Positions 16,174 to 31,738 of a stretch of DNA of 64,000 nt are shown here, in pieces. The notes below the pieces were generated by a model. The model was not told the origin of the DNA. It saw nothing but the letters and a program-made list of their open reading frames with translations, and did not search any database. The stretch is from Candidatus Falkowbacteria bacterium (GTDB lineage Bacteria; Patescibacteriota; Patescibacteriia; CAIXNZ01). Within the stretch, counting starts at the first letter, position 1; the number at the start of each line of letters is the position of its first letter. Location: NCBI GenBank assembly GCA_963774955.1, contig CAVZGV010000003.1:192771-256770 (forward strand), read 5' to 3'. The translations under genes were made by a program, and so were the position numbers.

Positions 16174-16881
16174 ATGAAGTTGAGTAAAATTACAATTTTT
16201 TGTTTGCTAGCGGCTGCGATGATGACAGCCGGAGTTTTGGTTGTGCAAGCAGCCGGATTTGTCAGCTATGAAGATGGCGCGACGAATCCAAAATTGTACT
16301 TTTGGGATAATGTCAGAATGGTTGGGCAGGGTTTAAAAATGTCGCCAGACGGTACGGCTGACGCAGAAATTGTCGGTGGCGGTATTTTGAAAATTATTGG
16401 CAAGGATCTTTTTGTCAGAGGTTTGATCGGCTTTGAATGCGCTGATTATCCCAACAATGTTAATTGTCAGGCGGCTATCGGCAATCTGGGTGTGTCTTTT
16501 TTGACCATGGATCAGATCAGCTCAGTTGCTGATTTAAATATTATTTCTCAAAACAGCAATATTAGTTTGAACGGTCTTTTAGACGGCAAAATCAATATGT
16601 CCGGTAAATTAATGATTAAAAATAATAACAATCTGATAGTGACTAATCAGGATCCCTTACCTATTGATTCTAATAGTGTCTTTGTTAATGATTTAGCAGT
16701 TAGCGAGTTGAGTGACACCGGCGCAATTGATCCTGATTCTGGCCAAAGAAGCGGCTTGACTTTGCCGACAATAAAATTTGATGAAATACCTGAAAATAAT
16801 GAATTAGGCAATGCCCATCCAATTATGTTTTATCCCAAAAGATTAATTAATATTAATCTAATAAATGTAAACGCCCCTTAA
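16174..16881 (+). CDS. Secreted protein with an N-terminal signal peptide (235 aa)
   Basis: MKLSKITIFCLLAAAMMTAGVLVVQAAG signal-like N-terminus. Asn/Ile-rich. Confidence 0.5.
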   Translation: MKLSKITIFCLLAAAMMTAGVLVVQAAGFVSYEDGATNPKLYFWDNVRMVGQGLKMSPDGTADAEIVGGGILKIIGKDLFVRGLIGFECADYPNNVNCQAAIGNLGVSFLTMDQISSVADLNIISQNSNISLNGLLDGKINMSGKLMIKNNNNLIVTNQDPLPIDSNSVFVNDLAVSELSDTGAIDPDSGQRSGLTLPTIKFDEIPENNELGNAHPIMFYPKRLININLINVNAP

Positions 16882-16885
16882 TCTT

Positions 16886-17710
16886 ATGTCTAAGGTCTAT
16901 AAAGCGATTATTTTATTGAGCAGCCTGGCCGTGATATTAATGGTTGGACGTTTTGTTTTTGCCTCAAACAGCGGTTATTTTTTAGAAAAAAATAATAATT
17001 TATATATTCTTGATAATCTGCATATCAACGGCTATCTGGCCGTGGAAAATACCTTGAGTACAGCTACCGGCAAGCTGGGAGATGTGCTAATTGGTGAATA
17101 TTTATTATTGGATGAAAGTAATAATTTATATTTTTGTGAAGACATCAGGGTCCCCAAAGTAAATACGCCTTTGAATAAAGATTGCAATTCTAAAATTCTA
17201 ATCTGGACACCTGACAGTTTGGAAATTAAAAGCGACCGTTATCAGCTAGTGGCCAATAAATTGTCAGCGCCAAACGGGACTATAAATTTTCAGCCTGCTA
17301 GCGCTGCTAGCGCTGCTAGCGGGAAAAATGTGCAGACCAAATACCCGGTCAAGTTAACCGGCTGTTTTTCTAATGACGGCAGTAATACTTGTGAAAATTC
17401 TGAAGTAAAGTCAGGTAATATCTATTTAAAAACTTTATCCGCGCTTTCAGCCAAAACCGGCTTATCTATCAGCGCCCAAACCTTGCACTTCACCGGAATA
17501 GATCTTGGTCCTGAAAAGAATATAAATAATCAGTGGATTTGCTGGAAAGCAGGGTTGACGAATAGTTGTAAAACAGCTTTTGGCGGCGCTTATGCGAGCG
17601 ATAGATGGACGTTTGCAGTTTCATCTCTCGGTACGACTTATACTCACGTAAAAGATAATAACACCCTCCAGGGTTCGAAATTGTGCTGTCATCTAAAAGT
17701 TACCTTTTAA
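16886..17710 (+). CDS. Secreted protein with a signal peptide (274 aa)
   Basis: Hydrophobic N-terminus. Contains a short ASAASAAS repeat. Cys-containing. Confidence 0.5.
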   Translation: MSKVYKAIILLSSLAVILMVGRFVFASNSGYFLEKNNNLYILDNLHINGYLAVENTLSTATGKLGDVLIGEYLLLDESNNLYFCEDIRVPKVNTPLNKDCNSKILIWTPDSLEIKSDRYQLVANKLSAPNGTINFQPASAASAASGKNVQTKYPVKLTGCFSNDGSNTCENSEVKSGNIYLKTLSALSAKTGLSISAQTLHFTGIDLGPEKNINNQWICWKAGLTNSCKTAFGGAYASDRWTFAVSSLGTTYTHVKDNNTLQGSKLCCHLKVTF

Positions 17711-17720
17711 TCAATCAATT

Positions 17721-19892
17721 ATGCATTTAGTATCAAAAATTTGTCTGATTATTGCGGCTTTTTTTGCCTTAAGCAGTATTGCCTGGGCCGGTTTTAATTA
17801 TGAATCTTTAAGTAATTCTTTTGTGATTGATTCGGTTTTTAAAAGCGGTGGTAATTATATCATGGTTGGTAATTCTCTGGATAATAGTTTGTATCCGGCT
17901 GGTGCTACTAAAGTTTCCGCTTTTTTCGGTGTGACTAATAATTTGATTTTTCTCAATCCGGAGGCCAAATTTTGTACTATTTCAAATTCTACCGACAATA
18001 CTTGTACTGGTTCTCGCCAGATTCAGAAAACCGACGGCGAATATATTTTCAAGACCAAATCGGTGTCCGTAAATAGCAGTAATGACTTTGGCCTTTATCC
18101 CAAGCCCGGTTCAGCCACTTTATTTTTGGAAGCTCAGACAATTGAAACACAATCAGATTTATATTTGAATCAGGGACGAAATTATGGCAGTTTGAATTTA
18201 TCAAATAATGCCAAGCCGCTGATTAATTCTATTTATGCACCCAGAGTTTCAGCCAATGAGCTTAGACTTTTCCCCGGTGCCAATCAATATATTAATATCA
18301 GCAGCGGAACTACTTTGAGCTTGATTTCCAGTATCAGGCCGCGCTATAAACGCACTATTACGATTCAAAATAATACCGGTCAGGTATTAACAGATGTTTC
18401 GGTGGCTATTAATTTACCTGCTGATATCCTGGTTGCTGATAAAATGAGGGCTGATGGCTGGGATTTGAGGTTTTTTGCCGATTCTAACCTAACCGTCCCG
18501 CTTGAATTTTTTATAGATATTATGCCTAAAATATGGGTCAAGCTTCCGACTACTATTTCCATACCTGCTGGTCAACCCGGGGATATCTATGTCACTTACG
18601 GCGGGAAGGTAACCACTAATCCAAGCAACCCTCCCGGGGTTTTTGGTACAATTTTAGGGGCGGATAATAACGCCGCTTTAGCCGTCAGTTATAATTTTGA
18701 TGAAGACGCCACTATTGCCGGAAATACTACTTTTGAAAGTTCACTGTTTGGTCCCTCAGCCGCGCTGAAAGATAATACTGCTTCCGCGCCTATGCGTGTC
18801 AGCGGTCGCGTTATCAACGGTATTAAAACTACCGGGACTCAAGTGGTAAGTCTTTCCCCCTGGGCAATACCGTTACAGAGTGAGTGGACTATTGAGACCT
18901 GGTTTATGACCCCGCTAAATACTCCGCTTCACGGTTATCAAATATTAGCCAGGGGATCCACTGATATTGTCATTGCCGCTAAAAGTTATGCTGGCGGATA
19001 TTTCTTGGGTACGATTCAAAATCCGGGTAATAATTTTAATCTTGGCTGGACCCCATGTGATACTAATTTAAGTTTGGCTGGTGATCAGGGCTTGAACCTT
19101 AAGAATACACAATATTTTACTGCTAATACTTGGCATCATTTGCTTGCAGTCGGTAAAGACGGCACCACAACTTTTTATATTGACGGAACACCAGCTATCG
19201 GCGGCAAAACTTGCGTTGCGGCTTTTCAATCAAGAAATAATGTTATCCACATGGGCAATTATGAAACCGGCGGTTTTTCCTGGGGTACTTTTGATGAATT
19301 CAGGGTCTACAATACTGCCTTAAATGAGGCACAGATTGATAAGCTGGCTGCAAATTGTGGTTTTACCACCTTAGCTTTCCCGGGTAAAGTTTTGGTCAGA
19401 AAATGTTTGACACCGGAACCGATTATAACTTGGGGTAGTACTGAAACTTGTTTGCAAGATTGCAACAATGAAGCTCTTCAAAGCAGTTTAGTTACCACTG
19501 CTCAGTCCATAACTTATTCAGTCGGTACACTTTCTAAGAATTTTTGCTATGTTGAAAGTCTAGACACGACAGGAACTGGCTCAAACGCCCTGAATTTTGT
19601 TAATTTTACGGCTACAACTGCTAATAAGACTGATAAAACTCGAGACGATCCTGCTGACACTTGTGGCGTCGGCGTCACTACCATTGGGGACTGTAAAATG
19701 ACCTCAGATAAAACTACTTGTGCCCGCAGAGCATGCTGCGCTTCTGGTTATTATGTTTTTGATTTTAATGCCAGTGCAAATAGTAACCAAACCATGGTTT
19801 GTTGCCGTTATAATAATGCAGCTCCTTGCTCAGTGAATACCGACTGTGCCTCCGGTCTTAAATGCGCCGATGGCTCATGTATTCCGACTTAA
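17721..19892 (+). CDS. Large secreted protein with a LamG/concanavalin-like domain and a Cys-rich C-terminus (723 aa)
   Basis: Signal peptide. WHHLLAVGKDGTTTFYIDG...FDEFRVYNTALNEAQIDKL is characteristic of laminin-G-like lectin folds. The C-terminal 100 aa carry many Cys. Confidence 0.55.
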   Translation: MHLVSKICLIIAAFFALSSIAWAGFNYESLSNSFVIDSVFKSGGNYIMVGNSLDNSLYPAGATKVSAFFGVTNNLIFLNPEAKFCTISNSTDNTCTGSRQIQKTDGEYIFKTKSVSVNSSNDFGLYPKPGSATLFLEAQTIETQSDLYLNQGRNYGSLNLSNNAKPLINSIYAPRVSANELRLFPGANQYINISSGTTLSLISSIRPRYKRTITIQNNTGQVLTDVSVAINLPADILVADKMRADGWDLRFFADSNLTVPLEFFIDIMPKIWVKLPTTISIPAGQPGDIYVTYGGKVTTNPSNPPGVFGTILGADNNAALAVSYNFDEDATIAGNTTFESSLFGPSAALKDNTASAPMRVSGRVINGIKTTGTQVVSLSPWAIPLQSEWTIETWFMTPLNTPLHGYQILARGSTDIVIAAKSYAGGYFLGTIQNPGNNFNLGWTPCDTNLSLAGDQGLNLKNTQYFTANTWHHLLAVGKDGTTTFYIDGTPAIGGKTCVAAFQSRNNVIHMGNYETGGFSWGTFDEFRVYNTALNEAQIDKLAANCGFTTLAFPGKVLVRKCLTPEPIITWGSTETCLQDCNNEALQSSLVTTAQSITYSVGTLSKNFCYVESLDTTGTGSNALNFVNFTATTANKTDKTRDDPADTCGVGVTTIGDCKMTSDKTTCARRACCASGYYVFDFNASANSNQTMVCCRYNNAAPCSVNTDCASGLKCADGSCIPT

Positions 19893-19926: not shown

Positions 19927-20400
19927 ATGGAAAATCCCCAGGGTTTTAAAAAGGAAATAAACGAGAAAGAAGGTGAGATAAAATTCACCATTAATACCAG
20001 GATTTATTCTTTAGCCGCTATTTATCAGGCAGCTTACTTTTTTTTAGATAAAGTTTATGTCTTTTTGGATGGTGATCCGAAAAAGGAAATTAAGGTTATG
20101 ATGAAAGTGAAAAGTGGGGAAGAAGGGTTGGTCAAAATTGCAGGGGAATTTTATAATGAACTTTTAAATCAGCTCTTGCGGGAAAAAGTCAGCTCAAGCA
20201 ATGCTAAAATCAGGGAGTATATTGTTTCTCAGGCGCTTTATAATGCCGTACCTAACGAGGTGGATGAATTATTAAAAGAGGTAGAAGAGGAAGATTGGCA
20301 GGAAGATCCTTTGGGGATAAGCAAGCCCTGGGAGGAAAAGAATGAGGAGGGAAAAAAGGGGAAGAAGGGTAAGGCGAGAAAGAAGGGAGGATCCAAGTAA
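19927..20400 (+). CDS. HxsD-like protein (His-Xaa-Ser system component)
   Basis: Contains FYNELLNQLLRE, close to the LLNDYxLRE signature that names the HxsD family. Lies adjacent to the HxsA-like peptide and radical SAM genes. Confidence 0.5.
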   Translation: MENPQGFKKEINEKEGEIKFTINTRIYSLAAIYQAAYFFLDKVYVFLDGDPKKEIKVMMKVKSGEEGLVKIAGEFYNELLNQLLREKVSSSNAKIREYIVSQALYNAVPNEVDELLKEVEEEDWQEDPLGISKPWEEKNEEGKKGKKGKARKKGGSK

Positions 20401-20401
20401 T

Positions 20402-20611
20402 ATGGAAATTATTAAGTTTAATAAGGATATTTACAATTTAAAAGCCATTGAAAAAGCCATTGAAGAATATAAAAAAATGGCTAATTTTACCGTAAAAGAG
20501 GTAGATGATTATTTTGAGGTCAGTCTTGATAAAATTGATCAGGAATTTCAGGGGGTAATTAAAAATGAGTTTGCTAATTATGTATCTGGGATTAATGAGC
20601 TAAAAGTATAA
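20402..20611 (+). CDS. Small protein (69 aa) resembling the N-terminal part of the preceding HxsD-like protein
   Basis: Good RBS (agaagggagga). Shares the pattern I-x-F-x-I...IY-x-L-x-AI with the upstream paralog. Confidence 0.4.
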   Translation: MEIIKFNKDIYNLKAIEKAIEEYKKMANFTVKEVDDYFEVSLDKIDQEFQGVIKNEFANYVSGINELKV

Positions 20612-20685
20612 GCACCAAATATCAAAAATCAAGTTCCAAGTAAATAACAATAAACAAATAACAAAGCAGAAACAAAAATAAAAAT

Positions 20686-21033
20686 ATGGAGAAAATTTAT
20701 GATTTAGAAGATCGCACCTTAAAGTTCGGCAAAGATATTATTCATTTATGCAAGGCTTTGCCAGAAAATACAATAAATTTCCGTTTGATTGATCAGCTTA
20801 TTCGTTCAGGCACTTCATCCGGAGTGAATTATCGTGAAGCGAACGAAACCGAGACTAAGAAGGATTTTAGGTTTAAGATCAGGATTTGTCTGCGGGAAGC
20901 TAGGGAAACTAAATATTGGCTGGAACTGCTGCAAGAGGCCAATTCTGAATTACAAGAAAAGATTGAATTTTTAATAATGGAAACCAAGGAATTAATTAAA
21001 ATATTCGCTACTATCCTGAGCAAAGCAAAATAG
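20686..21033 (+). CDS. Four-helix-bundle protein (the family found in 23S rRNA intervening sequences)
   Basis: IHLCKALPENTINFRLIDQLIRSGTSSGVNYREANETETKKDFRFKIRICLREARETKYWLELL matches the conserved core of that family. Confidence 0.75.
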   Translation: MEKIYDLEDRTLKFGKDIIHLCKALPENTINFRLIDQLIRSGTSSGVNYREANETETKKDFRFKIRICLREARETKYWLELLQEANSELQEKIEFLIMETKELIKIFATILSKAK

Positions 21034-21132
21034 TTTAAGTTTTAAATATATTGTAATTTATAATTTTTTTGAAGCTTGTAATTTGAGTCTTGGGATTTTT
21101 ATCAAAACATAATCAATAAAAATTAAGATAGC

Positions 21133-22635
21133 ATGTTGGATCTACAAACAATCAATAAATTTGACGATAAAAGCGTAGGTTATTTTCGCTTTAAGAAATT
21201 TGACGCTGATAATTATTTGCTGACCAATGAAGTGGGCCAGTATATTTTTCTTAAAGAAAAAGACTTTAAAGATTTTATTACCGGCCAGCTGAGTCCCAAG
21301 GCTAATGTTTATAAAGAGTTAAGGGCTAATTTGTTTATTAAGGATGAAGCGTATACCCCGACTCTAATTGAAAAATACCGGGCCAGAAACAGTTTTTTGA
21401 AATTTGGTCCGTCTTTGCATATTATAGTGGTAACTTTGCGCTGTAATCACAGCTGTATTTACTGCCATGCCAGCGCCGGCAACCAAACTGATAAGAGCCT
21501 AGATATGGATTTAGCTATGGCTAAAAAAATAGTTGATGTTATTTTCAAATCAACCAATAATGCGATTGCTATTGAGTTCCAGGGCGGAGAGCCGTTATTA
21601 AATTGGCCGGTGGTTAAATTTATTGTTCAATACGCCAATGAGAAAAATAAGCTGGAACAAAAGGATTTGCTCATCCGTTTAGTCTCAAATTTTAGCCTGT
21701 TGGATGAAGCTAAAATGAAGTTTTTTATTGATAACAAAGTTCATTTCTGCACGTCTTTGGACGGGGACGAGGAAACCCATAATTTTAACCGTAAGTATAG
21801 CTGTGGCAACAGTTTTGCTGAAGCCTCAAAGTGGATAAAAAGGATTAAGGCAGCATATGTAGGCAAATTTAAAGGCAAGAAAAAGGATTATTATAATGTT
21901 GGTGCGCTCATCACCATTACCAGAAAAACCCTAGGTAATTATAAAAAGGTGATTGACGCATATCTGGATTTGGGGATCCGTTCTATTTATTTAAGGTATT
22001 TGAATCCTTATGGTTTTGCCATGTCAGCCCAGGAAAATATCTGGTACACGCCTGAAGAATTTCTGGATTTTTATCAAAAGACATTAGATTACATTTTAGC
22101 CAAAAATAAAGAGGGAAAACTGTTTCTTGAAGCTACCGCTGTTACCTACTTAAGAAAAATTTTACTGCAGGAAGAACCTCATAACTTGGACATGCGTTCG
22201 CCCTGCGGAGCCGGTATTGGCCAAATGGCTTATAATTACAACGGTGATGTTTATACCTGTGATGAGGGCAGAATGATTTCGCGCATGGGCGATGAGATGT
22301 TTAAATTGGGGAATATCAATGAAAATTCTTTTGAGCAGCTGATCAATAATAATCTCTGCAAATCAATCTGTTTGGCTTCCTGCACAACCGGGTTACCCGG
22401 CCACAGTGATCAGGTTTATCAGCCATATTGGGGCACTTGTCCGGTGTATAATTATTCGCTTTACGGCAATATTTTCCCGCAGATGAAAAATAATTTCAAA
22501 TGGCAGATTGACGAGAAAATATTGGATTATATTTTCGTTAAATTACAGGATAAGAAAAACAGGGATATTTTTATGGAATGGGCCAAAAGGGCCAAGCCCC
22601 CGGTTGAGAGTAAATTTACAAAAAATAACGTTTAA
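21133..22635 (+). CDS. Radical SAM/SPASM peptide-maturase, HxsB/HxsC-like (500 aa)
   Basis: CNHSCIYC (CX3CX2C) after an about 100-aa N-terminal extension. GGEPLL. C-terminal Cys-rich SPASM-like region (SPCGAGIGQMAYNYNGDVYTCDEG...CKSICLASC). Confidence 0.7.
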   Translation: MLDLQTINKFDDKSVGYFRFKKFDADNYLLTNEVGQYIFLKEKDFKDFITGQLSPKANVYKELRANLFIKDEAYTPTLIEKYRARNSFLKFGPSLHIIVVTLRCNHSCIYCHASAGNQTDKSLDMDLAMAKKIVDVIFKSTNNAIAIEFQGGEPLLNWPVVKFIVQYANEKNKLEQKDLLIRLVSNFSLLDEAKMKFFIDNKVHFCTSLDGDEETHNFNRKYSCGNSFAEASKWIKRIKAAYVGKFKGKKKDYYNVGALITITRKTLGNYKKVIDAYLDLGIRSIYLRYLNPYGFAMSAQENIWYTPEEFLDFYQKTLDYILAKNKEGKLFLEATAVTYLRKILLQEEPHNLDMRSPCGAGIGQMAYNYNGDVYTCDEGRMISRMGDEMFKLGNINENSFEQLINNNLCKSICLASCTTGLPGHSDQVYQPYWGTCPVYNYSLYGNIFPQMKNNFKWQIDEKILDYIFVKLQDKKNRDIFMEWAKRAKPPVESKFTKNNV

Positions 22636-22649
22636 GGTATAATTAAGGC

Positions 22650-22785
22650 AACCCGCAAATATACAAATACGTTCACAAATAGTACAAATTGGAATAAACC
22701 CGCAAATATACAAATCCATTCACAAATTATACAAATTGGATGAAGATATTTGTGAGATTTGTACTAAGCTTTGTGTGTTTGTGGG
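22650..22785. repeat. About 136-bp palindromic repeat element, copy A (upstream of the GxxExxY gene)
   Basis: Two direct sub-repeats aacccgcaaatatacaaat..ttcacaaat..tacaaattgga, followed by an inverted copy tttgtgagatttgtactaag.tttgtgt.tttgtggg. About 85% identical to the copy at 23184-23320. Confidence 0.8.
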
Positions 22786-22797
22786 CGTATATAAAGT

Positions 22798-23184
22798 ATG
22801 GAAGACAAGGTTATTTATAAAGAGTTAAGCTATAAAATTGTCGGTATTTTATTTGATGTTTATAACGATCTTGGCTATGGGTATAAGGAGAAATATTATG
22901 AGAATGCGATTGAGCGTGAGTTGAGACTGGCAAGGCTCGGATATAAAAAACAAGTTCCCTTTAAATTGGTTTATAAAGAAGAAGTTATAGGCAAATTATT
23001 CGTTGATTTTATAATTGATGATAAGATTGTGCTGGAAATCAAAAAGGGCGATTATTTTAATAAGAGAAATATTGAGCAGGTAAAAGAATATTTAAAAATC
23101 AGCGGTAAAAAATTGGCAATATTGGCTAATTTTACATCTACCGGGGTGAAGTTTTTAAGGGTATTTAATTCCGATTACAAATAA
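22798..23184 (+). CDS. GxxExxY protein (PD-(D/E)XK-like selfish-element family), 128 aa
   Basis: GYGYKEKYYENAIE contains the G-x-x-E-x-x-Y signature. Bracketed by two copies of a palindromic repeat. Confidence 0.65.
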   Translation: MEDKVIYKELSYKIVGILFDVYNDLGYGYKEKYYENAIERELRLARLGYKKQVPFKLVYKEEVIGKLFVDFIIDDKIVLEIKKGDYFNKRNIEQVKEYLKISGKKLAILANFTSTGVKFLRVFNSDYK

Positions 23185-23320
23185 ACCCGTAAATTTACAA
23201 ATCATTTCACAAATAGTACAAATTGAAATATACCCGCAAATTTACAAATTAATTCACAAATCATACAAATTGGATGAAGATATTTGTGAGATTTGTACTA
23301 AGATTTGTGTTTTTTGTGGG
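23184..23320. repeat. About 136-bp palindromic repeat element, copy B (downstream of the GxxExxY gene)
   Basis: Same architecture as copy A. Supplies a spurious ATG that gives track ORF 23274 a 36-aa artefactual N-terminus. Confidence 0.8.
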
Positions 23321-23381
23321 AACCAGCTGCCGGGCAAGCCAAACGTTTTTAAATACACCTTACCAAATAATCAATAAAACA

Positions 23382-23768
23382 ATGAAGAATAGACTGCCAC
23401 AATTAAAGAAAAAATTCCAGGAATTCCTTAATGATGAAGAAGGTAAGATCACCAAAAAGGACATTATTATGCTGGGAATCGGCGTAACTGCTTTGGGTAT
23501 TTTGGCGGAAGAGGCAACTGCTGCTACTCCGGCATGCGGAAGCGGATATACTGCGGCAGGACCGACGGCAGTCGGTCATAATCGTCAGAATCAACTTATT
23601 GCTGGAGGGGCTAGTCATTTTGGGCATAATAATTTTATTCACAATGAAGGAACCCAGGGATCGCATTGTTCACATGGTTCTCATGGTTCACACGGGTCGC
23701 ATGGCAGTCACGGGTCACATGGCAGTCATGGGTCACATGGTCATCATAGTAGTGGCAACTCATGTTAA
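23382..23768 (+). CDS. HxsA-like precursor: N-terminal charged region, one TM helix, C-terminal (His-Gly-Ser)n tail
   Basis: C-terminus is GSHCSHGSHGSHGSHGSHGSHGSHGHHSSGNSC. Start set at ATG 23382, downstream of the repeat element. The DNA encoding the HGS repeats uses varied codons. Confidence 0.7.
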   Translation: MKNRLPQLKKKFQEFLNDEEGKITKKDIIMLGIGVTALGILAEEATAATPACGSGYTAAGPTAVGHNRQNQLIAGGASHFGHNNFIHNEGTQGSHCSHGSHGSHGSHGSHGSHGSHGSHGHHSSGNSC

Positions 23769-23778
23769 TTGATAGAGT

Positions 23779-24642
23779 ATGAATAATAGAATTTTTTTAA
23801 TTTTAATTGCAGTCATTGTCCTCCTATTCATTGGGGTAGGTGTTTTTTGGTTTTTGTATCAAGAACGAACTCCTTTACAGCCTAATTCAAATAAAACTGT
23901 TAATCAAAATATAAATGTAAATACTGACTATTGTTTAGCAAAAATAAAGGCCAATGAAGAGGACGCTTTTTCTATTTCTCGCAGGGAGTTTTATTCGGTT
24001 TTAAATTTTTATACTTTTTGTAAATATAATAATGATAAACAAAATATTATAGATAAATGTAAGAATTATTTCGGGGAGAGAAGAAGTAATTATTGTACGG
24101 ATAAATTCCCTTATTTAGTTATGCTTTATTATCTGAAGCTGGGACAAAAGATTGAATTTGTAAAAACATGCCAAGATTACACTTCGTTATCTCAAAATAA
24201 AAAAAATATAAGTTGTGATGAAATTTGGAATAAGGCCAATGATGCTAATTTAGAATTTTGTGATCAGGTGGATCGTTCCTGCGCCTACTTGGTTACCGAT
24301 TCTGAAAAAACATCATGTGCAAAAATTGTTAATTTGAGCACCCCAGTTGATAATATTCTAGATAATGATTGCCGCAATGAGATACAAATAAGAGCTGCCA
24401 CTTCTGCTCAAGATTGTTTGAGTATAAAGGATGATATTACCAAATTAATATGTTTGAGTGTTTATAGCAAAGACGCCTGTGACAGCGCCTTTGGTTTAAT
24501 AGACGAAAAGTGTCAAATTTTAGAGACAGGTAATTTGAAAAAATTTGAGGATAAATATTCATTAAATAACTGTTGTTATGAAAATGATCCTCAGCAAGGC
24601 GGGGAGGATGTCGGAGCCGTTTTATATGTCCAATTACAATAA
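23779..24642 (+). CDS. Membrane-anchored Cys-rich protein (287 aa, about 22 Cys)
   Basis: N-terminal TM anchor ILILIAVIVLLFIGVGVFWFL, then an extracytoplasmic domain with regularly spaced cysteines. Confidence 0.5.
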   Translation: MNNRIFLILIAVIVLLFIGVGVFWFLYQERTPLQPNSNKTVNQNINVNTDYCLAKIKANEEDAFSISRREFYSVLNFYTFCKYNNDKQNIIDKCKNYFGERRSNYCTDKFPYLVMLYYLKLGQKIEFVKTCQDYTSLSQNKKNISCDEIWNKANDANLEFCDQVDRSCAYLVTDSEKTSCAKIVNLSTPVDNILDNDCRNEIQIRAATSAQDCLSIKDDITKLICLSVYSKDACDSAFGLIDEKCQILETGNLKKFEDKYSLNNCCYENDPQQGGEDVGAVLYVQLQ

Positions 24643-24732: not shown

Positions 24733-25814
24733 ATGATGAAAGAAATTACTTTATATATTTCTTTAAATTCTAAATGCAATTTAGCTTGCCGATATTGCTA
24801 TATAAAAAAAAACCTTAAGGAACAATTAAATATTAGAAAGATTAAACAAAGAATAAGTTATTTTTTTAATAAAAATAACTTTTTGTTTATTAATTTTTGC
24901 GGTGGGGAACCATTAATGTCCTTTACGACAGTTAAAGAAACTTGTAACCTATATAGAAAGGGAGCAGAGAGCGTATGGATTTGGATGTGAATTAAGTATT
25001 ATAACCAATGGAACATTATTAGACGAAGAAAAAGTCTCTTATCTATTAAGCCATGACATTAAAATAATACTTAGTCTGGACGGTATTACGGCATCCTCAG
25101 ATATAAATAGGAAGTTTTTACATTCGAATAAGTCGGTTTCAGGTGAAATAATTAGCAGGCTGGAAAAATTAAATAAAAAAATCGGTTTTCTCCAAAATTC
25201 AAGATTTCAAAGGTTGTTTCACCGAATAATTTGAGGTATCTAAAAAGTGATTTGCTGTATTTTCAGGAATTGGGTATTACTGAATTGAGTTTAGGGATTG
25301 AAAGTTATCGACAATGGTCTGACTCAAGTATTAGATTATTTTGTGAAAAGATAGAGGAACTTTTTACGATTTATTTTGATTTATTAGAAAAACAAAAGGG
25401 AAAATATTTTTAAAGATTAATAATCTTGAACGCTTGATACATAATGAATTTCATTACTATTTTGATTGTGACCAAATTCGCTTAGATTGCGATGGTTCGC
25501 TTTTTTTATGTTTAAGTCATGTTTTCGATAAAAAATTTATGCGGCAGCAGCCCTTGAATCAGTCAGCAGATCTTTCTAAGGCCAAAATGTCATTATTAAA
25601 GAATAAATTACGTCAGCTGATTAATTTTGACGTTAATCTTAAAGAAAAATTGTTTTGTCCCGTCGATTTATTAGTATATTGTCAAATAAAGAAAATTGAT
25701 TTCGTAAGATGTATAAGATGTATGCCAGTTTACATCGATGTTTACGTCGATCAATGTCGGGCTGTATTTAAGGTGTTAAGTAAGAAGAAAAGATTTCGGA
25801 GTTGTATAATTTAA
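24733..25814 (+). pseudogene. Decayed radical SAM/SPASM gene (anSME-like), at least 3 frameshifts
   Basis: CNLACRYC plus GGEPL in frame 1. ITNGTLLDEE...LSLDG in a second frame. KISKVVSPNNLRYLKSDLLYFQELGITELSLG in a third. Cys-containing C-terminal fragment in a fourth. Confidence 0.75.
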
Positions 25815-25836
25815 ATTAAAATTTGGTATTAAATAA

Positions 25837-26923
25837 ATGTCTGATAAAGTTAATTTAATTTATAACGGGGGATATGGTTATCTTTTGGAAAAAGACGGCC
25901 AATTTCTGCCAATGGGTATTTTTCAGTTAATGTCCTATTTGAAGACAATGGGAATTGATCCTCTGTCAAGATTTTAAGCAAAGATCTATTGGCAGATGCT
26001 CACAGCAAAGATGTTATTTATAATTTTTTTGTTGAGAATAATGTCCGCAATTTGGAAAATTGGCAGAATAAACATATCGATAAAAACATCTTGAAAATTG
26101 GTAATCGACCAGTTATCACCAGTAAATGACAGTGCAAAATTTTGGGGCTTCAGTATCAGCTGTCTCGATGATGTTTTGCCAACTCTTTATGCTGTTTTGG
26201 CATTAAAAACTTTAGATAAGACAGCGGTAGTTATCATCGGCGGTGCTTACCTGAAATATTTAAATAAAGAGCTAATTATAGACAACCCAAATTTGATTGA
26301 TTTTTTAGTTGTTGGTGATGGTGAATATGCTCTGACTGAAATATTAATTAACAATGGGGATAAGGATAAATTGATCGCTACTGATAATTTGGTTTTTTAT
26401 AAAGATGGAAAATTGATAATTAATCCCGTTAAATATATTAATTTTAATGACATTAAATTGCCGGATTACGAGATCGTAAAGGCAGATGAAGAGATCTATT
26501 ATAATTTTTCCAGGGGTTGCGGCGGCCAGTGCATGTTTTGCACGTCGAAAGATAAGTTGCAGTTTAAAAATTATACTACAATTTGTAGCGAACTGGATCT
26601 CTTTAATTTCTAAATATAATCCGAGCAGGATTTATTTTATTGATTGCAGTGCCAATAACAACGCCCAGTTATTTATTAAAATTTTGGAATATTTACACGG
26701 GCGAACGGGAGATTTTGAGGCAATATTTTGGGTTGATTTTTTCAATTTTCCGGATAGTTTAATCCAGGCAATTAATGATTATACCACGGATAAAAAAATA
26801 AACTTAAAGTTCGGTCTAGAAAGCGGTGATAAAAAAATGCGTGATTTTTTGAATAAACCACGATTTACTAATGATGCAGCAATTGATATTGTGAAGAAAC
26901 TTAAGAACAGGTTAATAATTTAA
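25837..26923 (+). pseudogene. Decayed B12-binding-domain radical SAM gene (multiple frameshifts and stops)
   Basis: Cobalamin-binding-like VVIIGGAYLKYL...DFLVVGDGE. RGCGGQCMFC (CX3CX2C). Continues in another frame (SRIYFIDC...KFGLESG). The N-terminal part is also broken. Confidence 0.7.
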
Positions 26924-27300
26924 AAATAAATCTTAAATATTATTGTCAGTATTCCCTATGAAGATAAATTTAGTTTCTTAAAAACCTTAAAATTAATTTT
27001 ATATTTGAAGGATTATTGTTACCGGGTACCCATTACGATTTTTCATCTGACTCCTGAGAGTGCACTGTTCTGAAGAATCCAGATAAGTATAAGATTAGGT
27101 TACGTGACCGTTCAGTAAATAAATATAATTACTTTTTTTGTTACGATGAAATTGACGGCTTTAAAATGGGAGGATATTGAGCGAAGAAATTATAAGTATT
27201 TTGAGCATATTGTTTCTTATTTGAATAAGGCTAAAATTAGTTGGTGAAAATATATGGATGATATTTTAAATGTTCACTTTAAAGCGTCTATTGGAATTTA

Positions 27301-28030
27301 TTGATATTAAGAAATTTACAGCTTAAGGATTTTTTTATCGGAGCAGAAATGACGTTGGTTAAGCTTTCAGACAATAGTTTGGGGACAGCTGCGAATTTCG
27401 ATGTTCAAATCGATACCGATAAACATTTAAAGTTTTCTGCTATAAGGGAGAGTGATCATATTAGGAAATTAATAAACAAAGATCCTTTATTATTAAAATA
27501 TTTGCAGAATCTTGACTGCAGTTTTAAACGGTCATTAAAATTAGCCATAGTTTCAGCGTTGTCTCAGCCTTTATTGAATAAAAGTGAATTAAGGAGACTT
27601 GGTCTTGAATTTTTTTAGAGTTAAAAAGAGCAGTTCATGGCAACATAGACTTGTCCCGTTACTTAAAGATAAAAACGAAGCTGTTTTAATAGGTTATGGC
27701 GGGGGCTTACATACATTATTAAAGTCAAAGATTTTAAATTTGTATATTTCTGATTTTATGTTTAAAAATAGGGTGTTTTTAATGCAGTCAATTCGAGAAT
27801 TGGCTAGACTCAAGAAATTGTATAATTTTATGGGAAAGATTAAATTATCAAATGGTTTACAGAATGAAGCGATTCTAAAGAAGGCCAATCTTACCTTAAT
27901 TAGCGGTTCTGCCCTAGCTATTAATACGATGGAAGATTTGCTTAAAAATGCTCGAAGATGTGCTAAACGGTCATTGTCCAGGGGCCTAGTGCCAGTATCT
28001 ACCCAGCCGAATTATTTTCCAGAGGAGTAA
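27301..28030 (+). CDS. Hypothetical protein split into two overlapping ORFs at a T7 homopolymer (27301-27618 and 27599-28030)
   Basis: The frame change coincides with gaattttttt at about 27608-27617. No family recognised with confidence. Confidence 0.35.
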
Positions 28031-28137
28031 CTGATTTATTCACTAATATAAAGAAAGAAGCCGATATATTTGATTATAAAATTCCTGGCGGCCATACTAG
28101 GGATGATAGCAATTATATCCATATTTATAAATAATTT

Positions 28138-28997
28138 ATGCATTATTCATTAGATTTAAATTACAATTGCAATAATGATTGCCTTTTCTGTTTTAATAAA
28201 TATGATAAAAACAAGTCGTTTGATATTAAGCAGGTAAAAAAAGAAATTGATTGGGCGTCTAAAAATCAGTTTGATATTCTCGATTTTTATGGCGGGGAAC
28301 CGCTATTATATAAAGATGATTTGTTGGAAATTCTAAAGTATGCACATGCAATAAAGGGTTGAAATCCGGAATCGCTACAAATGCCACTTTTTTAGATGAT
28401 AAAATTGTTAAAATTTTCAATGAATTAGGGGTGGTTAATTGTAGAACAAGTATGCACGGCCATAATAAGGTATTGCATGACATGGTGACTCAAAGGAAAG
28501 GTAGCTTTGAAAAGACCTCTCGAGGAATTAATTCTTTGATTAACTATTTTAACGGGGAGATAATTATAAATATAGTCATTACCAAATTAAATTATAAATA
28601 TCTACCAGACATTGTTCTACATATATGTAAACTTGATCCTGGTAAGAAGGCGGCTATTAAGTTTTCCAATTTGATTTATAATCATAATAATGATGTTTAT
28701 AGAAAGATTGGCCTGTCTTTATCAGCCACCCAGCCGGTTGTGTATAAAGTAATCAAAAATATAGTTAAAGATAGAAAGTTTTATATTGAGAAATATCCTT
28801 ATTGTTTTTTAAAACCATTCTCTAAAAATTTTATAATAGAAAAAGATCTTGGCAGGGAAATTATATTTTGGCATAATGATTGCGCTGTCTGCAAATTCAA
28901 GAATAAGTCTTGTGTCGGATTAAATATCAATTATGTCAATTATATCCAGCCAGATATAGGTGAAATTAAAAAATTGAATAATTTTAAATATGAATAA
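28138..28997 (+). CDS. Short twitch/SPASM-type radical SAM enzyme, paralog 1, interrupted by a -1 frameshift at about 28355-28362
   Basis: CNNDCLFC, GGEPLL, TNATFLDD, NIVITKLNYKYL and a C-terminal CAVCKFKNKSCVG cluster. The break lies in an aaaggg run (ORFs 28138-28362 and 28359-28997). Confidence 0.65.
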
Positions 28998-30378
28998 GCT
29001 GAGAAAGTTATTAGGTCGCGAGCAGATCTCGAATGAAAAAAAACAATATATTAAGATAAACAATTACTGTAATAATAATTGTATTTTTTGCCTTGATTCT
29101 GCCAATCAGGAAAAGGCTCAGCGGATCAAAAAAACTTTCATATTTAAACAAATCAAAGATGGAAGGGCCGGGGGGGCTAATAAATTAATACTAAGCGGCG
29201 GCGAAGCTACAATTGATCCCTACTTCCTTGAATATGTTAAATTTGCCAAAACGAACGGTTATCATAAAATACAGGTTATTTCCAATGGCCGGATGTTTGC
29301 GTACGGTAAATTTGCTAAGCAGGCAATAGCGAATGGTTTGAATGAGATAACGATATCAATTCATGGGCATAATCAGAAGTTGTACGAAAAATTGACTAAT
29401 ATACCCGGATCATTTAAACAATTGTTAGCGGCATTAAATAATTTAAAACAATTTCCCGGGTTGATAATAAATATTGATATAGTGATCAATAAATTAAATT
29501 ATAAATATATTTATGAGATTATTAAATTTTATAGTAAAAATTGTGGTATTTTTGAATATGATTTACTTAATTTAACACCTGCCGGCCGCGCTTTAATTAA
29601 TAAAAAGATATTATTTATTAATTTGAAACTAGCTTTGAAGTATTTAAAGCCTGTTTTTAATCTGACGAAAAGGGATAGTCGGTTTTTTATATGGACTAAT
29701 AGGTTGCCTCCTAAATATTTAGAAGGGTATGAGTATTTAATCCAAGACCCTCATAAATTAATGGATGAGGTTTCGGGCCGTTATCAATCATTAAACAGTT
29801 TTTTGACCTTAGGGACTAAAATGAGTTGTCAGGATGATCTAAACTGCTCTTGGTGTTATTTGGATGATTTCTGTAAAAAGCTCAGGGACACTAAACAACT
29901 AAATAATTTTGAGTTTTTCCCCATAAAATCCATTAATGATGTTAGAAATGTTAGTGAACGCAAGTATTTTGTTGAGGTTGACAGGAAGAATTACAAGGAC
30001 ATCTTAGAAAATATTGAAGAATATAAAAAATATAATGTTTATTTTAAATTAAGAAATTTTAGCACTGTAAAAGAACTTGACCAGAAGGCTTTGCCTCTAA
30101 GTTTATTCAAAGAATATTTTGCGATGGATAAAGATATTAAATTTTTAGACTTTCCATTATGTTTGGTTAATAAACAGGCAAAAGTAGCGCAATTTTTGAA
30201 TTTGTCAAGAAATGCCGCTGATTTAGATTTAAAGCAATTTACCATGAATTATATAAGGGATTTATATTATATAAAAGCTTTAAAATGCGATCATTGTAGA
30301 TTTAATAAAAAATGTTCTGGCTGGCATATTAATTATGTGCGCTATTACGGGTTTAAAATTTTTAACCCAGTCATATGA
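28990..30378 (+). CDS. Radical SAM enzyme, paralog 2, with an about 170-aa C-terminal extension (462 aa)
   Basis: CNNNCIFC, SGGEATIDP, ISNGRMF, IDIVINKLNYKYIYEI. Terminal CDHCRFNKKCSGWH. Start overlaps the upstream stop (ATGAATAA). Confidence 0.75.
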   Translation: MNKLRKLLGREQISNEKKQYIKINNYCNNNCIFCLDSANQEKAQRIKKTFIFKQIKDGRAGGANKLILSGGEATIDPYFLEYVKFAKTNGYHKIQVISNGRMFAYGKFAKQAIANGLNEITISIHGHNQKLYEKLTNIPGSFKQLLAALNNLKQFPGLIINIDIVINKLNYKYIYEIIKFYSKNCGIFEYDLLNLTPAGRALINKKILFINLKLALKYLKPVFNLTKRDSRFFIWTNRLPPKYLEGYEYLIQDPHKLMDEVSGRYQSLNSFLTLGTKMSCQDDLNCSWCYLDDFCKKLRDTKQLNNFEFFPIKSINDVRNVSERKYFVEVDRKNYKDILENIEEYKKYNVYFKLRNFSTVKELDQKALPLSLFKEYFAMDKDIKFLDFPLCLVNKQAKVAQFLNLSRNAADLDLKQFTMNYIRDLYYIKALKCDHCRFNKKCSGWHINYVRYYGFKIFNPVI

Positions 30379-31736
30379 GTAAAATTGATTTTAATCAGCG
30401 GTTAAAATTTTTTAGAGATATTACTTATCGGTATAATTTAATATTCCCGACCGATTATTTATATCTTTCACCTAAAAAGGAATGGGGATTAGAGCAGATG
30501 ATGAATTTATGGCGATTTAATTTGAGAAATGTTAATAACCCATATGTTTCGCTTTATTTACATATCCCTTTTTGTCTCGAAAGAAGGTGCTCTTATTGTA
30601 TAAATTTATCTTCGGTATTGGAGTCCGGCTCCCAGCTCGAGCAATATTTGGATTATCTGAAAAAAACGATGTTAAACTATAGGAAAATATTTCCGACTAC
30701 AAAATTCAATACATTATATATAGGCGGAGGTACCCCCTCGATATTATCGCCAAAACAGTTGGATGATTTTTTAAAAACCATTAAGATTAATTTTAAATTT
30801 GAAAGTTCTGGCATGAAAACTATCGAGATGTCACCTGCTACTGCAAGTTATGAAAAAATAGATATTTGTAAAAGGCAAGGTATTAATCGCATAAGTATGG
30901 GGATTCAATCTTTGAACTGCAAGATTCTAGAATCAGTTAATAGATTCAATACTTTAGCCTATAATGAGTTACAGGATCTTTGTCGGTATGTTAATAGGAA
31001 GAAATTTGAAGATTTTAATTTGGATTTAATAATTGGCTTGCCTGGCGAAAATAATAAAAGTTTTTTAAATAACCTGACGCAATTATTAAAGTTAAATATT
31101 CCATCAATTACTGTTTATAAATATGTACATAAATATTTTGAGTCCGAAAAAAATACGCCAAAGTATTACGAAGAGCAATATTTAATCAAGTATAAAGATA
31201 TTATTAAAAATATAGGAGCTATATTGAAAAAGTATCATTATATTGAAGAAACGTCCGGGGCTGGAATTAATAATCTATTTCGTTTCGTAAAGAAAAACCA
31301 TAGCAAAAAACAGGATTATTTTTTGCAATGGAACTCACAATTAAATAATTCTGTTTTAGGTATCGGGAAAGGCTCTACCAGTCTTATACAAAATAAAGTC
31401 TTTGCCAATGAAGATTTTAACGTATCAGTAAATAACCTAGTATCAAGCAATGTTAAATATTCAGGTCACATATTTAATAAAGATGACCAAATTCGCAATT
31501 ATACAATTATGGAACTCTGGCGTAATCGGGCAATGGATTTTTCAGAATTCAAGAGGTTATTCGGGCTAGATTTTTACAGCTACTTTAAGGGGGAGCTAGA
31601 CTATTTGAGAATTCAAAATAAAGTAATAATTACCGATAAATACGTAGAGATTAAATTTAATGATATTTTGGATTTTGCAATTAATATAAAATTATTTTTT
31701 AATTTTTCTTATCTTAAAACTAACTATCAAACATAA
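30375..31736 (+). CDS. HemN/HemW-like radical SAM enzyme with a non-canonical CX4CX2C motif, paralog A (453 aa)
   Basis: LHIPFCLERRCSYC, LYIGGGTPS, INRISMGIQS, DLIIGLPGE. ATGA overlap with the upstream gene. Confidence 0.75.
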   Translation: MSKIDFNQRLKFFRDITYRYNLIFPTDYLYLSPKKEWGLEQMMNLWRFNLRNVNNPYVSLYLHIPFCLERRCSYCINLSSVLESGSQLEQYLDYLKKTMLNYRKIFPTTKFNTLYIGGGTPSILSPKQLDDFLKTIKINFKFESSGMKTIEMSPATASYEKIDICKRQGINRISMGIQSLNCKILESVNRFNTLAYNELQDLCRYVNRKKFEDFNLDLIIGLPGENNKSFLNNLTQLLKLNIPSITVYKYVHKYFESEKNTPKYYEEQYLIKYKDIIKNIGAILKKYHYIEETSGAGINNLFRFVKKNHSKKQDYFLQWNSQLNNSVLGIGKGSTSLIQNKVFANEDFNVSVNNLVSSNVKYSGHIFNKDDQIRNYTIMELWRNRAMDFSEFKRLFGLDFYSYFKGELDYLRIQNKVIITDKYVEIKFNDILDFAINIKLFFNFSYLKTNYQT

Positions 31737-31738
31737 TT

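What the first reader, a model, noticed from the sequence alone, without database searches (positions are those of the whole stretch)
19927..24642. His-Xaa-Ser (HXS)-type peptide system with a membrane-tethered (His-Gly-Ser)n precursor
This block holds four HXS-type components:
- An HxsD-like protein (LLNQLLRE against the family signature LLNDYxLRE).
- A small HxsD-like paralog.
- An HxsB/C-like rSAM/SPASM enzyme.
- A precursor whose C-terminus is eight consecutive H-G-S triplets ending ...HHSSGNSC.

The precursor also has a predicted TM helix (IIMLGIGVTALGILA) after a Lys-rich N-terminus. The product may therefore be membrane-anchored or processed by an intramembrane protease.

The DNA encoding the HGS repeats uses diverse codons (catggt tca / cacggg tcg / catggc agt ...). 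This points to selection on the peptide repeat rather than recent replication slippage.

The function of HXS systems is unknown. This instance sits beside a much larger rSAM array.
Basis: partly seen in the sequence, partly recalled or inferred. Interest (0 to 1): 0.7.

Follow-up and report, generated by a model that had tools for sequence, protein, structure and literature searches.

The report
Expanded radical-SAM His-Xaa-Ser peptide system
This is a real His-Xaa-Ser (HXS) peptide-maturation locus in a tiny-genome CPR bacterium, and it belongs to a widespread, undescribed version of the system that adds five to nine extra radical-SAM enzymes, a membrane protease and a cysteine-rich membrane protein.

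Summary
Window 19927-24642 encodes:
- HxsD (TIGR03976, 63 bits, cutoff 50);
- a small HxsD-like protein (NF038315, 64 bits, cutoff 41);
- HxsB (TIGR03978, 522 bits, cutoff 370);
- a 128-aa precursor ending in HCS-(HGS)7-HGH-HSS.

- There are seven exact HGS units, not eight.
- The rSAM is HxsB. No protein reaches the HxsC cutoff.
- Two genes in the block, a four-helix-bundle gene and a GxxExxY gene, are variable insertions.
- HXS function is no longer unknown. A 2026 paper shows anti-phage defence in E. coli.
- The 15-residue hydrophobic stretch looks more like an export signal than a stable membrane anchor.

This is a new variant of a known kind. Its chemistry and biological role are untested.

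The parts
16174..19892 (+). Three secreted proteins of 235, 274 and 723 aa. The third carries Laminin_G_3 and a weak DUF2341 hit. They lie immediately upstream of HxsD and are syntenic in CPR relatives.
   Evidence: N-terminal signal-like segments end in VQA|A, VFA|S and AWA|G. Pfam hits are. tblastn finds synteny in L001, L002, L003, L012 and L092 at 33-75% identity, evolving much faster than HxsB. Whether they belong to the system is an inference from synteny only.
19927..20400 (+). HxsD (157 aa) with LLNQLLRE at residues 79-86
20402..20611 (+). Small HxsD-like protein (69 aa)
   Evidence: NF038315 scores 64.1 bits against a cutoff of 41. It occurs together with HxsD in 50 of 56 related loci.
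20686..21033 (+). Four-helix-bundle (23S rRNA IVS-type) protein, a variable insertion that is not an HXS component
   Evidence: TIGR02436 scores 84.8 bits and PF05635 scores 62.3 bits. It is present in L001 (92.7% identity) but absent from L002, L003 and L092.
21133..22635 (+). HxsB radical SAM/SPASM maturase (500 aa)
   Evidence: TIGR03978 scores 521.6 bits against a cutoff of 370. CNHSCIYC is at residue 104. Orthologues are 82-37% identical in L001-L011.
22798..23184 (+). GxxExxY / PDDEXK_3 protein, a variable insertion that is not an HXS component
   Evidence: TIGR04256 scores 100.9 bits. Among the relatives it is found only in L002, at 83% identity, where HxsB is 69% identical.
23382..23768 (+). 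HxsA-type precursor (128 aa). It has a basic conserved leader (residues 1-32), a 15-residue hydrophobic segment, a linker and an HxS repeat core.
   Evidence: HxsA3 matches the leader at 37.3 bits (cutoff 65) and HxsA4 matches the repeats at 41.6 bits (cutoff 55). There are 254 homologues sharing the same architecture.
23664..23753 (+). In-register triplet run HCS-(HGS)7-HGH-HSS
23779..24642 (+). 287-aa protein with an N-terminal TM helix and 16 Cys, the positional partner of HxsA
   Evidence: It has no family hit. An analogous TM plus Cys-rich protein of 226-389 aa lies next to HxsA in at least 22 of 36 loci. It is 27% identical to its L012 counterpart.
24733..28997 (+). Four genes broken by about nine frameshifts: a SPASM-type rSAM (24733-25811), a B12-type rSAM (25837-27177), a DUF364/DUF4213 protein (27283-28131) and an HxsC-like rSAM (28135-28997)
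   Evidence: Three-frame reading is, rSAM motifs and DUF364 hits. The rest of the window reads in long ORFs.
28990..35844 (+). Six intact rSAM genes with overlapping or near-abutting ends. Four are HxsC/HxsC4-like (28990-30378, 31739-32674, 32667-33548, 33555-34490). Two are HemN-like (30375-31736, 34450-35844).
   Evidence: The best NCBIfam hits are HxsC4 and HxsC, all below cutoff. The HemN-like hits are in the same search. Gaps between genes run from -41 to +6 nt, and motifs are listed.
35993..37807 (+). The most conserved HxsC-like rSAM (N-terminal ~300 aa), fused to a 300-aa extension of unknown function
   Evidence: HxsC4 scores 137 bits and HxsC scores 103 bits, both below cutoff. It is 63, 53, 51 and 50% identical to orthologues in L001, L009, L010 and L011.
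37779..39284 (+). A24-family (GxGD) aspartyl membrane protease with a C-terminal extension (501 aa)

Best explanation
The block is the front end of one ~19-23 kb operon-like locus, from about 16174 or 19927 to 39284. It encodes an expanded variant of the His-Xaa-Ser system in a CPR (Parcubacteria-like) bacterium.

Shown:
- HxsD, an HxsD-like protein and HxsB are bona fide family members.
- The precursor has a strongly conserved ~30-residue basic leader (xIKKxIxxFLxSEEGKIxKKxIxK-phi-G/A), a short hydrophobic segment and an HxS-repeat core.
- The downstream rSAM genes, a TM/Cys-rich protein and an A24 aspartyl membrane protease recur with these genes across several phyla.

Inferred mechanism:
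1. In the cytoplasm the leader is bound by the HxsD-type proteins. These present the repeats to HxsB and to the HxsC-like, HemN-like and B12-type rSAM enzymes.
2. Those enzymes install several kinds of modification on the H-G-S units. The chemistry is unknown. E. coli HXS adds +8 Da on one SHRSS motif.
3. The hydrophobic segment then targets the product to or across the membrane.
4. The leader is removed either by the locus's A24 protease, after the conserved G/A (window G32|I33), or by signal peptidase at the A-rich stretch that follows.

Biological role, by homology only: a modified His-rich effector acting at the cell envelope, most likely protective against phage or other invaders as in E. 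coli HXS. I put that role at roughly one in three.
For: - Family scores are above curated cutoffs.
- HxsD homologues in Patescibacteria are already named HxsD by NCBI.
- Genes are tightly packed on the same strand from 19927 to 39284, and a strong terminator lies at 15526-15550.
- The same architecture occurs in CPR (L001-L003, L012, L092), Omnitrophota (L005), Elusimicrobiales (L007/L008), an archaeal-looking contig (L010) and others (L009, L011).
- In 27 loci with at least 8 kb downstream of HxsB, the median is 6 additional rSAM genes and 22 of 27 have three or more. Upstream, 18 of 20 loci have none. HxsD and HxsD-like occur together in 50 of 56 loci. A leader-bearing HxS precursor occurs in 33 of 46.
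- Array members have orthologues across phyla, up to 63-50% identity for 35993-37807.
- The leader logo comes from 90 sequences, with 100% G or A at the leader/hydrophobic boundary.
- The A24 protease is supported by invariant catalytic motifs and a FlaK fold match. It is found in L005, L010 and L011. Matching contig lengths indicate it shares a contig with HxsD in at least 11 cases.
- The E. coli precedent shows rSAM-dependent maturation, N-terminal processing and export of HxsA.
- The secreted and Cys-rich partners evolve fast, 27-38% identity where HxsB is 72%. Array content differs between close relatives.
Against: - No protein reaches the HxsC cutoff, and the canonical HxsA model does not hit.
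- The precursor scores below the HxsA3 and HxsA4 cutoffs.
- The repeats here are H-G-S and carry almost no Lys or Arg. The electrostatic DNA-binding model proposed for E. coli HxsA therefore does not transfer simply.
- There is no peptidoglycan-binding domain.
- The locus is flanked by housekeeping genes, not defence genes. PADLOC has no model for it.
- The A24 protease was seen within the fetched flanks of only some loci, and its substrate is not known.
- The HxsA site lacks the long hydrophobic helix and the E+5 of true prepilins.
- Four array genes in this window are frameshifted, so part of the pathway may be decaying.
- No chemistry, localisation or phenotype was tested here.
Confidence: 0.6

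Rival explanations
1. It is an ordinary four-gene HXS anti-phage system like the E. coli one, and the rSAM array is an unrelated neighbour.
For: HxsD and HxsB pass their cutoffs. E. coli HXS is a defence system.
Against: There is no HxsC at cutoff and no canonical HxsA hit. The precursor has no PG-binding domain, and an extra HxsD-like gene is present. The array recurs with the core genes across phyla and lies only on the downstream side. Array members are orthologous between phyla.
Confidence: 0.07
2. It makes a secreted, hypermodified small peptide (a RiPP natural product such as a metallophore or antimicrobial) rather than an envelope-resident effector. The leader is cut off and the His-rich core, possibly metal-binding, is released.
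For: The precursor has a leader-core layout. Many tailoring rSAM enzymes are present, including methyltransferase-type classes (HemN-like and B12-type). A dedicated protease is present. The core is rich in His with Cys near the end. A DUF364/DUF4213 'heavy-metal chelation' gene sits in the array. The hydrophobic segment is too short for a stable anchor in most members.
Against: No exporter or PCAT was found in the locus. The hydrophobic segment is conserved as part of the precursor. Cores reach 52 repeats, which is large for a diffusible RiPP. The only experimental precedent is a protein effector.
Confidence: 0.22
3. HxsA is a pilin-like subunit. The A24 prepilin-type peptidase removes a class-III-like leader and the product assembles into a surface filament, together with the upstream secreted proteins.
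For: An A24 protease is in the locus. G or A is invariant just before the hydrophobic segment and K or R is at -3 in about 80% of members. Secreted proteins are syntenic upstream.
Against: The hydrophobic run has a median of 13 residues, against about 20 in pilins. There is no E+5. The leader is about 30 residues long and highly conserved, unlike prepilin leaders. No assembly ATPase or platform gene lies in the locus.
Confidence: 0.06
4. The repeat is just a generic His-rich metal-binding tail on an unrelated protein.
For: The protein has a His-rich C-terminus, and Pfam gives only a weak collagen-like hit.
Against: The neighbouring genes hit the HXS family models above cutoff. The precursor's leader and repeats match HxsA3 and HxsA4 and 254 homologues that sit in the same gene context.
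Confidence: 0.02

Closest known systems
E. coli/Klebsiella HXS anti-phage system (HxsD-HxsB-HxsC-HxsA; Li et al., Nat Commun 2026, PMC13128918; families TIGR03976-03979 of Haft & Basu 2011)
   Same: HxsD and HxsB are orthologous at equivalog cutoffs. The precursor has tandem His-Xaa-Ser repeats and an N-terminal export-type segment. Maturation is predicted to depend on rSAM enzymes, and N-terminal processing is expected.
   Different: - No HxsC reaches the cutoff. Instead there are six HxsC-like paralogues (one frameshifted), two HemN-like rSAMs, one B12-type rSAM and one SPASM rSAM.
- There is an extra HxsD-like gene, a TM/Cys-rich partner and an A24 protease.
- The precursor is 128 aa with a conserved 30-residue leader, no PG-binding domain and non-basic H-G-S units.
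- The host is a CPR bacterium, whereas 99.7% of canonical HXS systems are in Pseudomonadota.
NCBIfam HxsA3 (NF038309), HxsA4 (NF038313), HxsC4 (NF038332) and HxsD-like (NF038315) models
   Same: The HxsD-like model is met. The leader matches the HxsA3 profile and the repeats match HxsA4. Omnitrophota homologues of the precursor are named HxsA4 by NCBI. The array rSAMs have HxsC4 as their best hit.
   Different: The precursor and every array rSAM score below these models' cutoffs. No paper in the searched library mentions HxsA4 or HxsC4, so the variant exists only as annotation labels.
Multi-rSAM hypermodified RiPPs such as the polytheonamide/proteusin pathways (from my own knowledge, not tested here)
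   Same: One ribosomal precursor has a long leader and is served by several rSAM tailoring enzymes, including methyltransferase-type classes.
   Different: The enzyme families, the leader and the repeat-type core are all different. The number of rSAM genes per locus here (up to about 11) is unusually high.
Three-residue cyclophane (triceptide) rSAM/SPASM maturases acting on His-x-x motifs (e.g. HtkB, HaaB; PMC11499958)
   Same: These are SPASM rSAM enzymes acting on repeated three-residue motifs that begin with an aromatic residue or His. They offer a plausible chemical precedent for HxsB.
   Different: HxsB's similarity to cyclophane synthase models is weak: YhhB 47.6 bits and WgkB 48.6 bits, against PapB 114.9 bits. 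The E. coli modification is +8 Da, not -2 Da.
Peptidase A24 (prepilin peptidase, FlaK, PibD)
   Same: The two catalytic Asp motifs and the membrane-domain fold match.
   Different: This protein has extra TM helices and a ~170-residue soluble insert/extension. It sits in an rSAM peptide-maturation locus with no pilus assembly genes.

Membership tests
His-Xaa-Ser (HXS) system | HxsD protein (TIGR03976, LLNDYxLRE motif) | tested here: met
   63.1 bits against a cutoff of 50. The motif variant LLNQLLRE is at residues 79-86.
His-Xaa-Ser (HXS) system | HxsB rSAM/SPASM maturase (TIGR03978) | tested here: met
   521.6 bits against a cutoff of 370. CxxxCxxC and a SPASM domain are present.
His-Xaa-Ser (HXS) system | HxsC rSAM maturase (TIGR03977), normally adjacent to HxsB | tested here: not met
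   The best scores in the window are 103.3 and 97.3 bits against a cutoff of 267.9. None of these genes is adjacent to HxsB.
His-Xaa-Ser (HXS) system | HxsA precursor with tandem His-Xaa-Ser repeats | tested here: met
   Nine HxS in ten in-register triplets. The canonical HxsA model gives no hit at E<=1, so this is a repeat-bearing precursor of a different subfamily.
His-Xaa-Ser (HXS) system | [quoted passage not shown] | tested here: not met
   No such Pfam or NCBIfam hit. The middle residue x is Gly, Cys or Ser.
His-Xaa-Ser (HXS) system | Anti-phage activity and block of DNA entry | not testable with these tools
   Known only for E. coli.
HxsD-like protein (NF038315) | Equivalog HMM score | tested here: met
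   64.1 bits against a cutoff of 41.
HxsA3 / HxsA4 repeat proteins (NF038309 / NF038313) | HMM score above the curated cutoff | tested here: not met
   37.3 bits against 65, and 41.6 bits against 55. The architecture (leader, hydrophobic segment, repeats) is shared with named HxsA4 proteins.
HxsC4 (NF038332) | HMM score of at least 500 | tested here: not met
   The best score in the window is 149.8 bits. The best in any related locus examined is 207.7 bits.
Peptidase A24 (GxGD aspartyl membrane protease) | Two catalytic Asp residues in the conserved motifs D..K.I.N and G-D-A-K-L | tested here: met
   D27, N35, D101 and K103 are invariant in 42 homologues.
Peptidase A24 (GxGD aspartyl membrane protease) | Fold of the membrane domain | tested here: met
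Peptidase A24 (GxGD aspartyl membrane protease) | Pfam PF01478 gathering score | tested here: not met
   The window protein scores 19.6 bits against 26.5. Eleven of 56 homologues carry a precomputed PF01478 hit, and two are named prepilin peptidase.
Class III (prepilin-type) signal peptide | G or A at -1, followed by a ~20-residue hydrophobic helix (E at +5 in bacteria) | tested here: inconclusive
   G or A is at the boundary in 100% of 90 sequences. However, the hydrophobic run has a median of 13 residues and there is no E+5.
   The window's stretch is 15 residues with a Kyte-Doolittle maximum of 1.65. The family median is 13. No dedicated predictor was available.

The most novel reading that the evidence does not exclude
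A single, ancient, cross-domain machine builds a heavily modified His-rich repeat polymer for the cell surface. It occurs in CPR bacteria, DPANN-type archaea, Omnitrophota and Elusimicrobiota. It consists of the HXS core (HxsD, HxsD-like, HxsB) plus five to nine further radical-SAM enzymes, a dedicated GxGD aspartyl protease and a fast-evolving Cys-rich membrane partner. In this organism the locus takes about 4% of a 566-kb contig. That would make it one of the most rSAM-dense peptide pathways known. It would also be a major envelope feature of ultrasmall, host-dependent microbes, and it is not described in the literature.
Probability: 0.45. Interest if true: 0.75.

Novelty: new variant of a known kind. 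Interest (0 to 1): 0.55.

Why it matters
HXS has just been shown to be a defence system that stops phage DNA at the envelope. That work reported it as almost confined to Pseudomonadota. This locus shows that a much larger relative of the system is common in uncultivated lineages: CPR, Omnitrophota, Elusimicrobiota and DPANN-like archaea. More than 523 HxsB relatives turned up in one capped metagenome scan.

A genome of about 0.6 Mb spends roughly 23 kb on it. That argues for an important envelope function in organisms whose surface biology is largely unknown.

For enzymology, the locus offers a defined substrate, (H-G-S)n behind a conserved leader, together with up to eleven rSAM enzymes of four classes. 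This makes the open question of what HxsB and HxsC chemistry actually is directly testable. It also links a prepilin-type protease to peptide maturation.

Tried and rejected
- An exact-sequence look-up of the window's HxsB and A24 proteins for their contig found no gene record. The cluster look-up showed only that they lie on a 565,549-bp NCBI/ENA contig.
The HxsB alignment A4 was used instead.
- PADLOC gave only generic rSAM cross-hits to pVip.
- My AxA-type cleavage-site test matched 84 of 88 sequences. It is too permissive to separate signal peptidase from A24 processing.
- The promoter scan was at background level.
- The Cys-rich partners are too divergent for BLAST to unite. Only weak pairwise links were found.
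- I considered recoding (code 4 or 25) as the cause of the broken ORFs at 24.7-29 kb and rejected it. The interrupting stops are a mix of TGA, TAA and TAG, and reading continues in a different frame.


Full report
**Observation.** The + strand between 19927 and 24642 carries seven ORFs. NCBIfam places three of them in HXS families above the curated cutoffs:
- 19927-20400 is HxsD (TIGR03976, 63.1 bits, cutoff 50). LLNQLLRE starts at residue 79.
- 20402-20611 is the HxsD-like protein (NF038315, 64.1 bits, cutoff 41).
- 21133-22635 is HxsB (TIGR03978, 521.6 bits, cutoff 370). It has CNHSCIYC at residue 104 and a SPASM domain.

The precursor ORF is 23274-23768, but relatives begin at the internal Met (23382, MKNRLPQL), which gives 128 aa. 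Its C-terminus reads HCS-(HGS)7-HGH-HSS-GNSC, so there are seven exact HGS units rather than eight. The nine-base units are mostly different. However, an 18-bp unit recurs 2.8 times at 93% identity, and close relatives carry 7-9 repeats. The peptide is therefore under selection, but unit duplication also happens.

Two ORFs in the block are not HXS parts. One is a four-helix-bundle IVS-type protein (20686-21033) and the other is a GxxExxY/PDDEXK_3 protein (22798-23184). Each is present in only one of the close relatives, and each is more conserved than the flanking HxsB.

**The system is larger than the flagged block.** Downstream, on the same strand and with gaps of -41 to +148 nt, lie the following:
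- a 287-aa protein with an N-terminal TM helix and 16 Cys;
- four genes broken by about nine frameshifts (a SPASM rSAM, a B12-type rSAM, a DUF364/DUF4213 protein and an HxsC-like rSAM);
- four intact HxsC/HxsC4-like rSAMs;
- two HemN-like rSAMs with a CX4CX2C motif;
- a fifth intact HxsC-like rSAM fused to a 300-aa extension;
- a 501-aa polytopic membrane protein.

CysRS follows after a 437-nt gap. None of the HxsC-like proteins reaches the HxsC or HxsC4 cutoffs. The best scores are 103 bits against 268, and 150 bits against 500.

**Comparative evidence.** A genome scan with HxsB found only CPR relatives: Parcubacteria at 82%, Falkowbacteria at 79%, Uhrbacteria at 69% and Buchananbacteria at 65%. 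Where the contigs extend far enough, they share the gene order. That order is three secreted proteins, HxsD, HxsD-like, HxsB, HxsA and a TM/Cys-rich protein. An rSAM array follows where the contig continues.

A search with the precursor found 254 homologues with the same layout. Some are named HxsA4 in Omnitrophota. Others come from Elusimicrobiales and Woesearchaeota. Their contexts in L005 and L007-L011, including an archaeal-looking contig, repeat the pattern: HxsD, small HxsD-like, HxsB (536 and 419 bits in L005 and L007), a TM/Cys-rich protein, HxsA and then 5-8 rSAM genes of the same classes.

Across all loci:
- 27 loci have at least 8 kb downstream of HxsB. They hold a median of six further rSAM genes, and 22 of the 27 have three or more. 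Upstream, 18 of 20 loci have none.
- HxsD and HxsD-like occur together in 50 of 56 loci.
- A leader-bearing HxS precursor occurs in 33 of 46 loci, with 5-52 HxS units.
- A TM/Cys-rich protein flanks HxsA in at least 22 of 36 loci.

Array members are orthologous across phyla. Window 35993-37807 is 63, 53, 51 and 50% identical to its counterparts in L001, L009, L010 and L011. The array is therefore part of the system and not a chance neighbour.

**The precursor and the protease.** Ninety family members share a leader, xIKKxIxxFLxSEEGKIxKKxIxK-phi-[G 86% / A 14%]. A hydrophobic run follows, and then an Ala-rich stretch. The uncharged run has a median of 13 residues, and 50 of 88 are 14 or shorter. 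The window's run is 15. That length suits a signal-peptide h-region better than a permanent anchor, so 'membrane-tethered' is not established.

A24 enzymes cut after a G or A at the cytoplasmic edge of a hydrophobic segment. The invariant G/A in HxsA (window G32|I33) is a candidate site, but this is inference. The segment is shorter than in pilins and has no E+5.

**Comparison with what is known.** Haft and Basu defined HXS in silico. Li et al. (PMC13128918) showed that the E. coli system blocks phage DNA entry. HxsB, HxsC and HxsD are all needed for N-terminal processing, a +8 Da change on SHRSS and periplasmic accumulation of HxsA. That HxsA has a signal peptide, a PG-binding domain and five basic HxS repeats. 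They report the order D-B-C-A in 99.6% of systems and 99.7% of systems in Pseudomonadota.

The window shares HxsD, HxsB and a repeat precursor with an export segment. It differs in several ways:
- No protein reaches the HxsC cutoff.
- It has an extra HxsD-like gene.
- It has many HxsC-like and other rSAM enzymes.
- It has the Cys-rich partner and the A24 protease.
- Its precursor is short and leader-bearing, with non-basic H-G-S units.

NCBIfam already holds HxsA3, HxsA4, HxsC4 and HxsD-like models, and PGAP names HxsD in Patescibacteria. No paper in the library mentions HxsA4 or HxsC4 or describes this architecture.

**Mechanism and rivals.** The best-supported account runs as follows. The leader guides cytoplasmic modification of the repeats by HxsB and the HxsC-like, HemN-like and B12-type rSAM enzymes, with the two HxsD-type proteins acting as adaptors. 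In E. coli, HxsD binds HxsC. Membrane targeting through the hydrophobic segment comes next, and the leader is then removed.

The HxsD model is a small alpha/beta sandwich with no informative structural neighbour, so its adaptor role is inferred.

The biological role is open. Several points fit a conflict or defence role:
- homology to the E. coli defence system;
- the fast evolution of the secreted and Cys-rich partners (27-38% identity where HxsB is 72%);
- variable array content between relatives;
- pseudogenes in the array.

Other points leave a metal-binding or RiPP-product role open:
- the non-basic His/Gly/Ser core;
- the DUF364 gene in the array;
- the housekeeping flanks.

A pilin-like reading and a 'generic His tail' reading are unlikely.

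**Verdict.** The finding is real and correctly filed as HXS-type. As written it would be a new member of a known family. The extended, cross-phylum, multi-rSAM architecture with an A24 protease makes it a new variant of a known kind. Interest is moderate to high for rSAM enzymology and for the envelope biology of ultrasmall microbes.

Noticed in passing
window 20686-21033 and 22798-23184: Two small genes are inserted between HXS genes: a four-helix-bundle (23S rRNA IVS-type, TIGR02436) gene and a GxxExxY/PDDEXK_3 (TIGR04256) gene. Each is present in only one close relative and is more conserved than the flanking HxsB (92.7% against 82%, and 83% against 69%). They look like mobile or selfish insertions.
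   Followed up: partly
window 24718-28997: Four consecutive genes are broken by about nine frameshifts, while the other 60 kb reads cleanly. They are a SPASM rSAM, a B12-type rSAM, a DUF364/DUF4213 protein and an HxsC-like rSAM. The interrupting stops are mixed TGA, TAA and TAG. Relatives L001 and L092 have different, intact genes at this position. This is either real decay of part of the array or a local assembly problem.
   Followed up: partly
window 51102-52374: A 394-bp unit is repeated three times in tandem at 98-99% identity. Each copy holds the first ~55 nt of tRNA-Gln followed by a 90-aa GIY-YIG endonuclease gene. A fourth copy of the tRNA part is the only intact tRNA-Gln(CTG), at 52303-52374. 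It looks like a homing-endonuclease insertion at a tRNA gene that has been amplified.
   Followed up: partly
window 30375-31736 and 34450-35844: The two HemN-like rSAM proteins carry CX4CX2C (C67/C72/C75 and C90/C95/C98) instead of the usual CX3CX2C cluster motif.
   Followed up: no
window 35993-37807: The most conserved HxsC-like rSAM is fused to a ~300-aa C-terminal region with no family hit. Its L001 orthologue is a stand-alone 299-aa protein.
   Followed up: no
L005 4535-4972, L009 6727-7119, L007 3597-4775, L011 6074-6715: In the non-CPR loci the gene before HxsD encodes a secreted protein. It carries a shared T(I/M)T(T/S)YYPxPYG(G/S)Y motif right after the signal peptide. Its function is unknown.
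   Followed up: no
L006 8001-10624 (Woesearchaeota GCA_019322485.1): Two tandem copies of an HxsA-like precursor (130 aa), each paired with a 263-aa membrane protein. The two 263-aa proteins are 84% identical. No HxsB or HxsD lies within 8 kb. Only other rSAM genes are nearby.
   Followed up: no
L034, L051, L056 (metagenome loci): Some family precursors carry 51-52 HxS units, and some loci hold two precursors. This is far more than the 9 units in the window.
   Followed up: no
L001 11513-11874: The HxsA gene of the closest genome relative (Parcubacteria JAPLYC010000045) is split between two frames at the leader/hydrophobic junction.
   Followed up: no
window 23239-23261: Short ACAAAT(T)-type direct repeats lie in the 197-nt spacer upstream of the precursor start. 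They may be regulatory.
   Followed up: no
window 45537-47774: A 745-aa VirD4/TraG-type coupling-protein homologue (TrwB_AAD_bind, T4SS-DNA_transf) sits among housekeeping genes.
   Followed up: no
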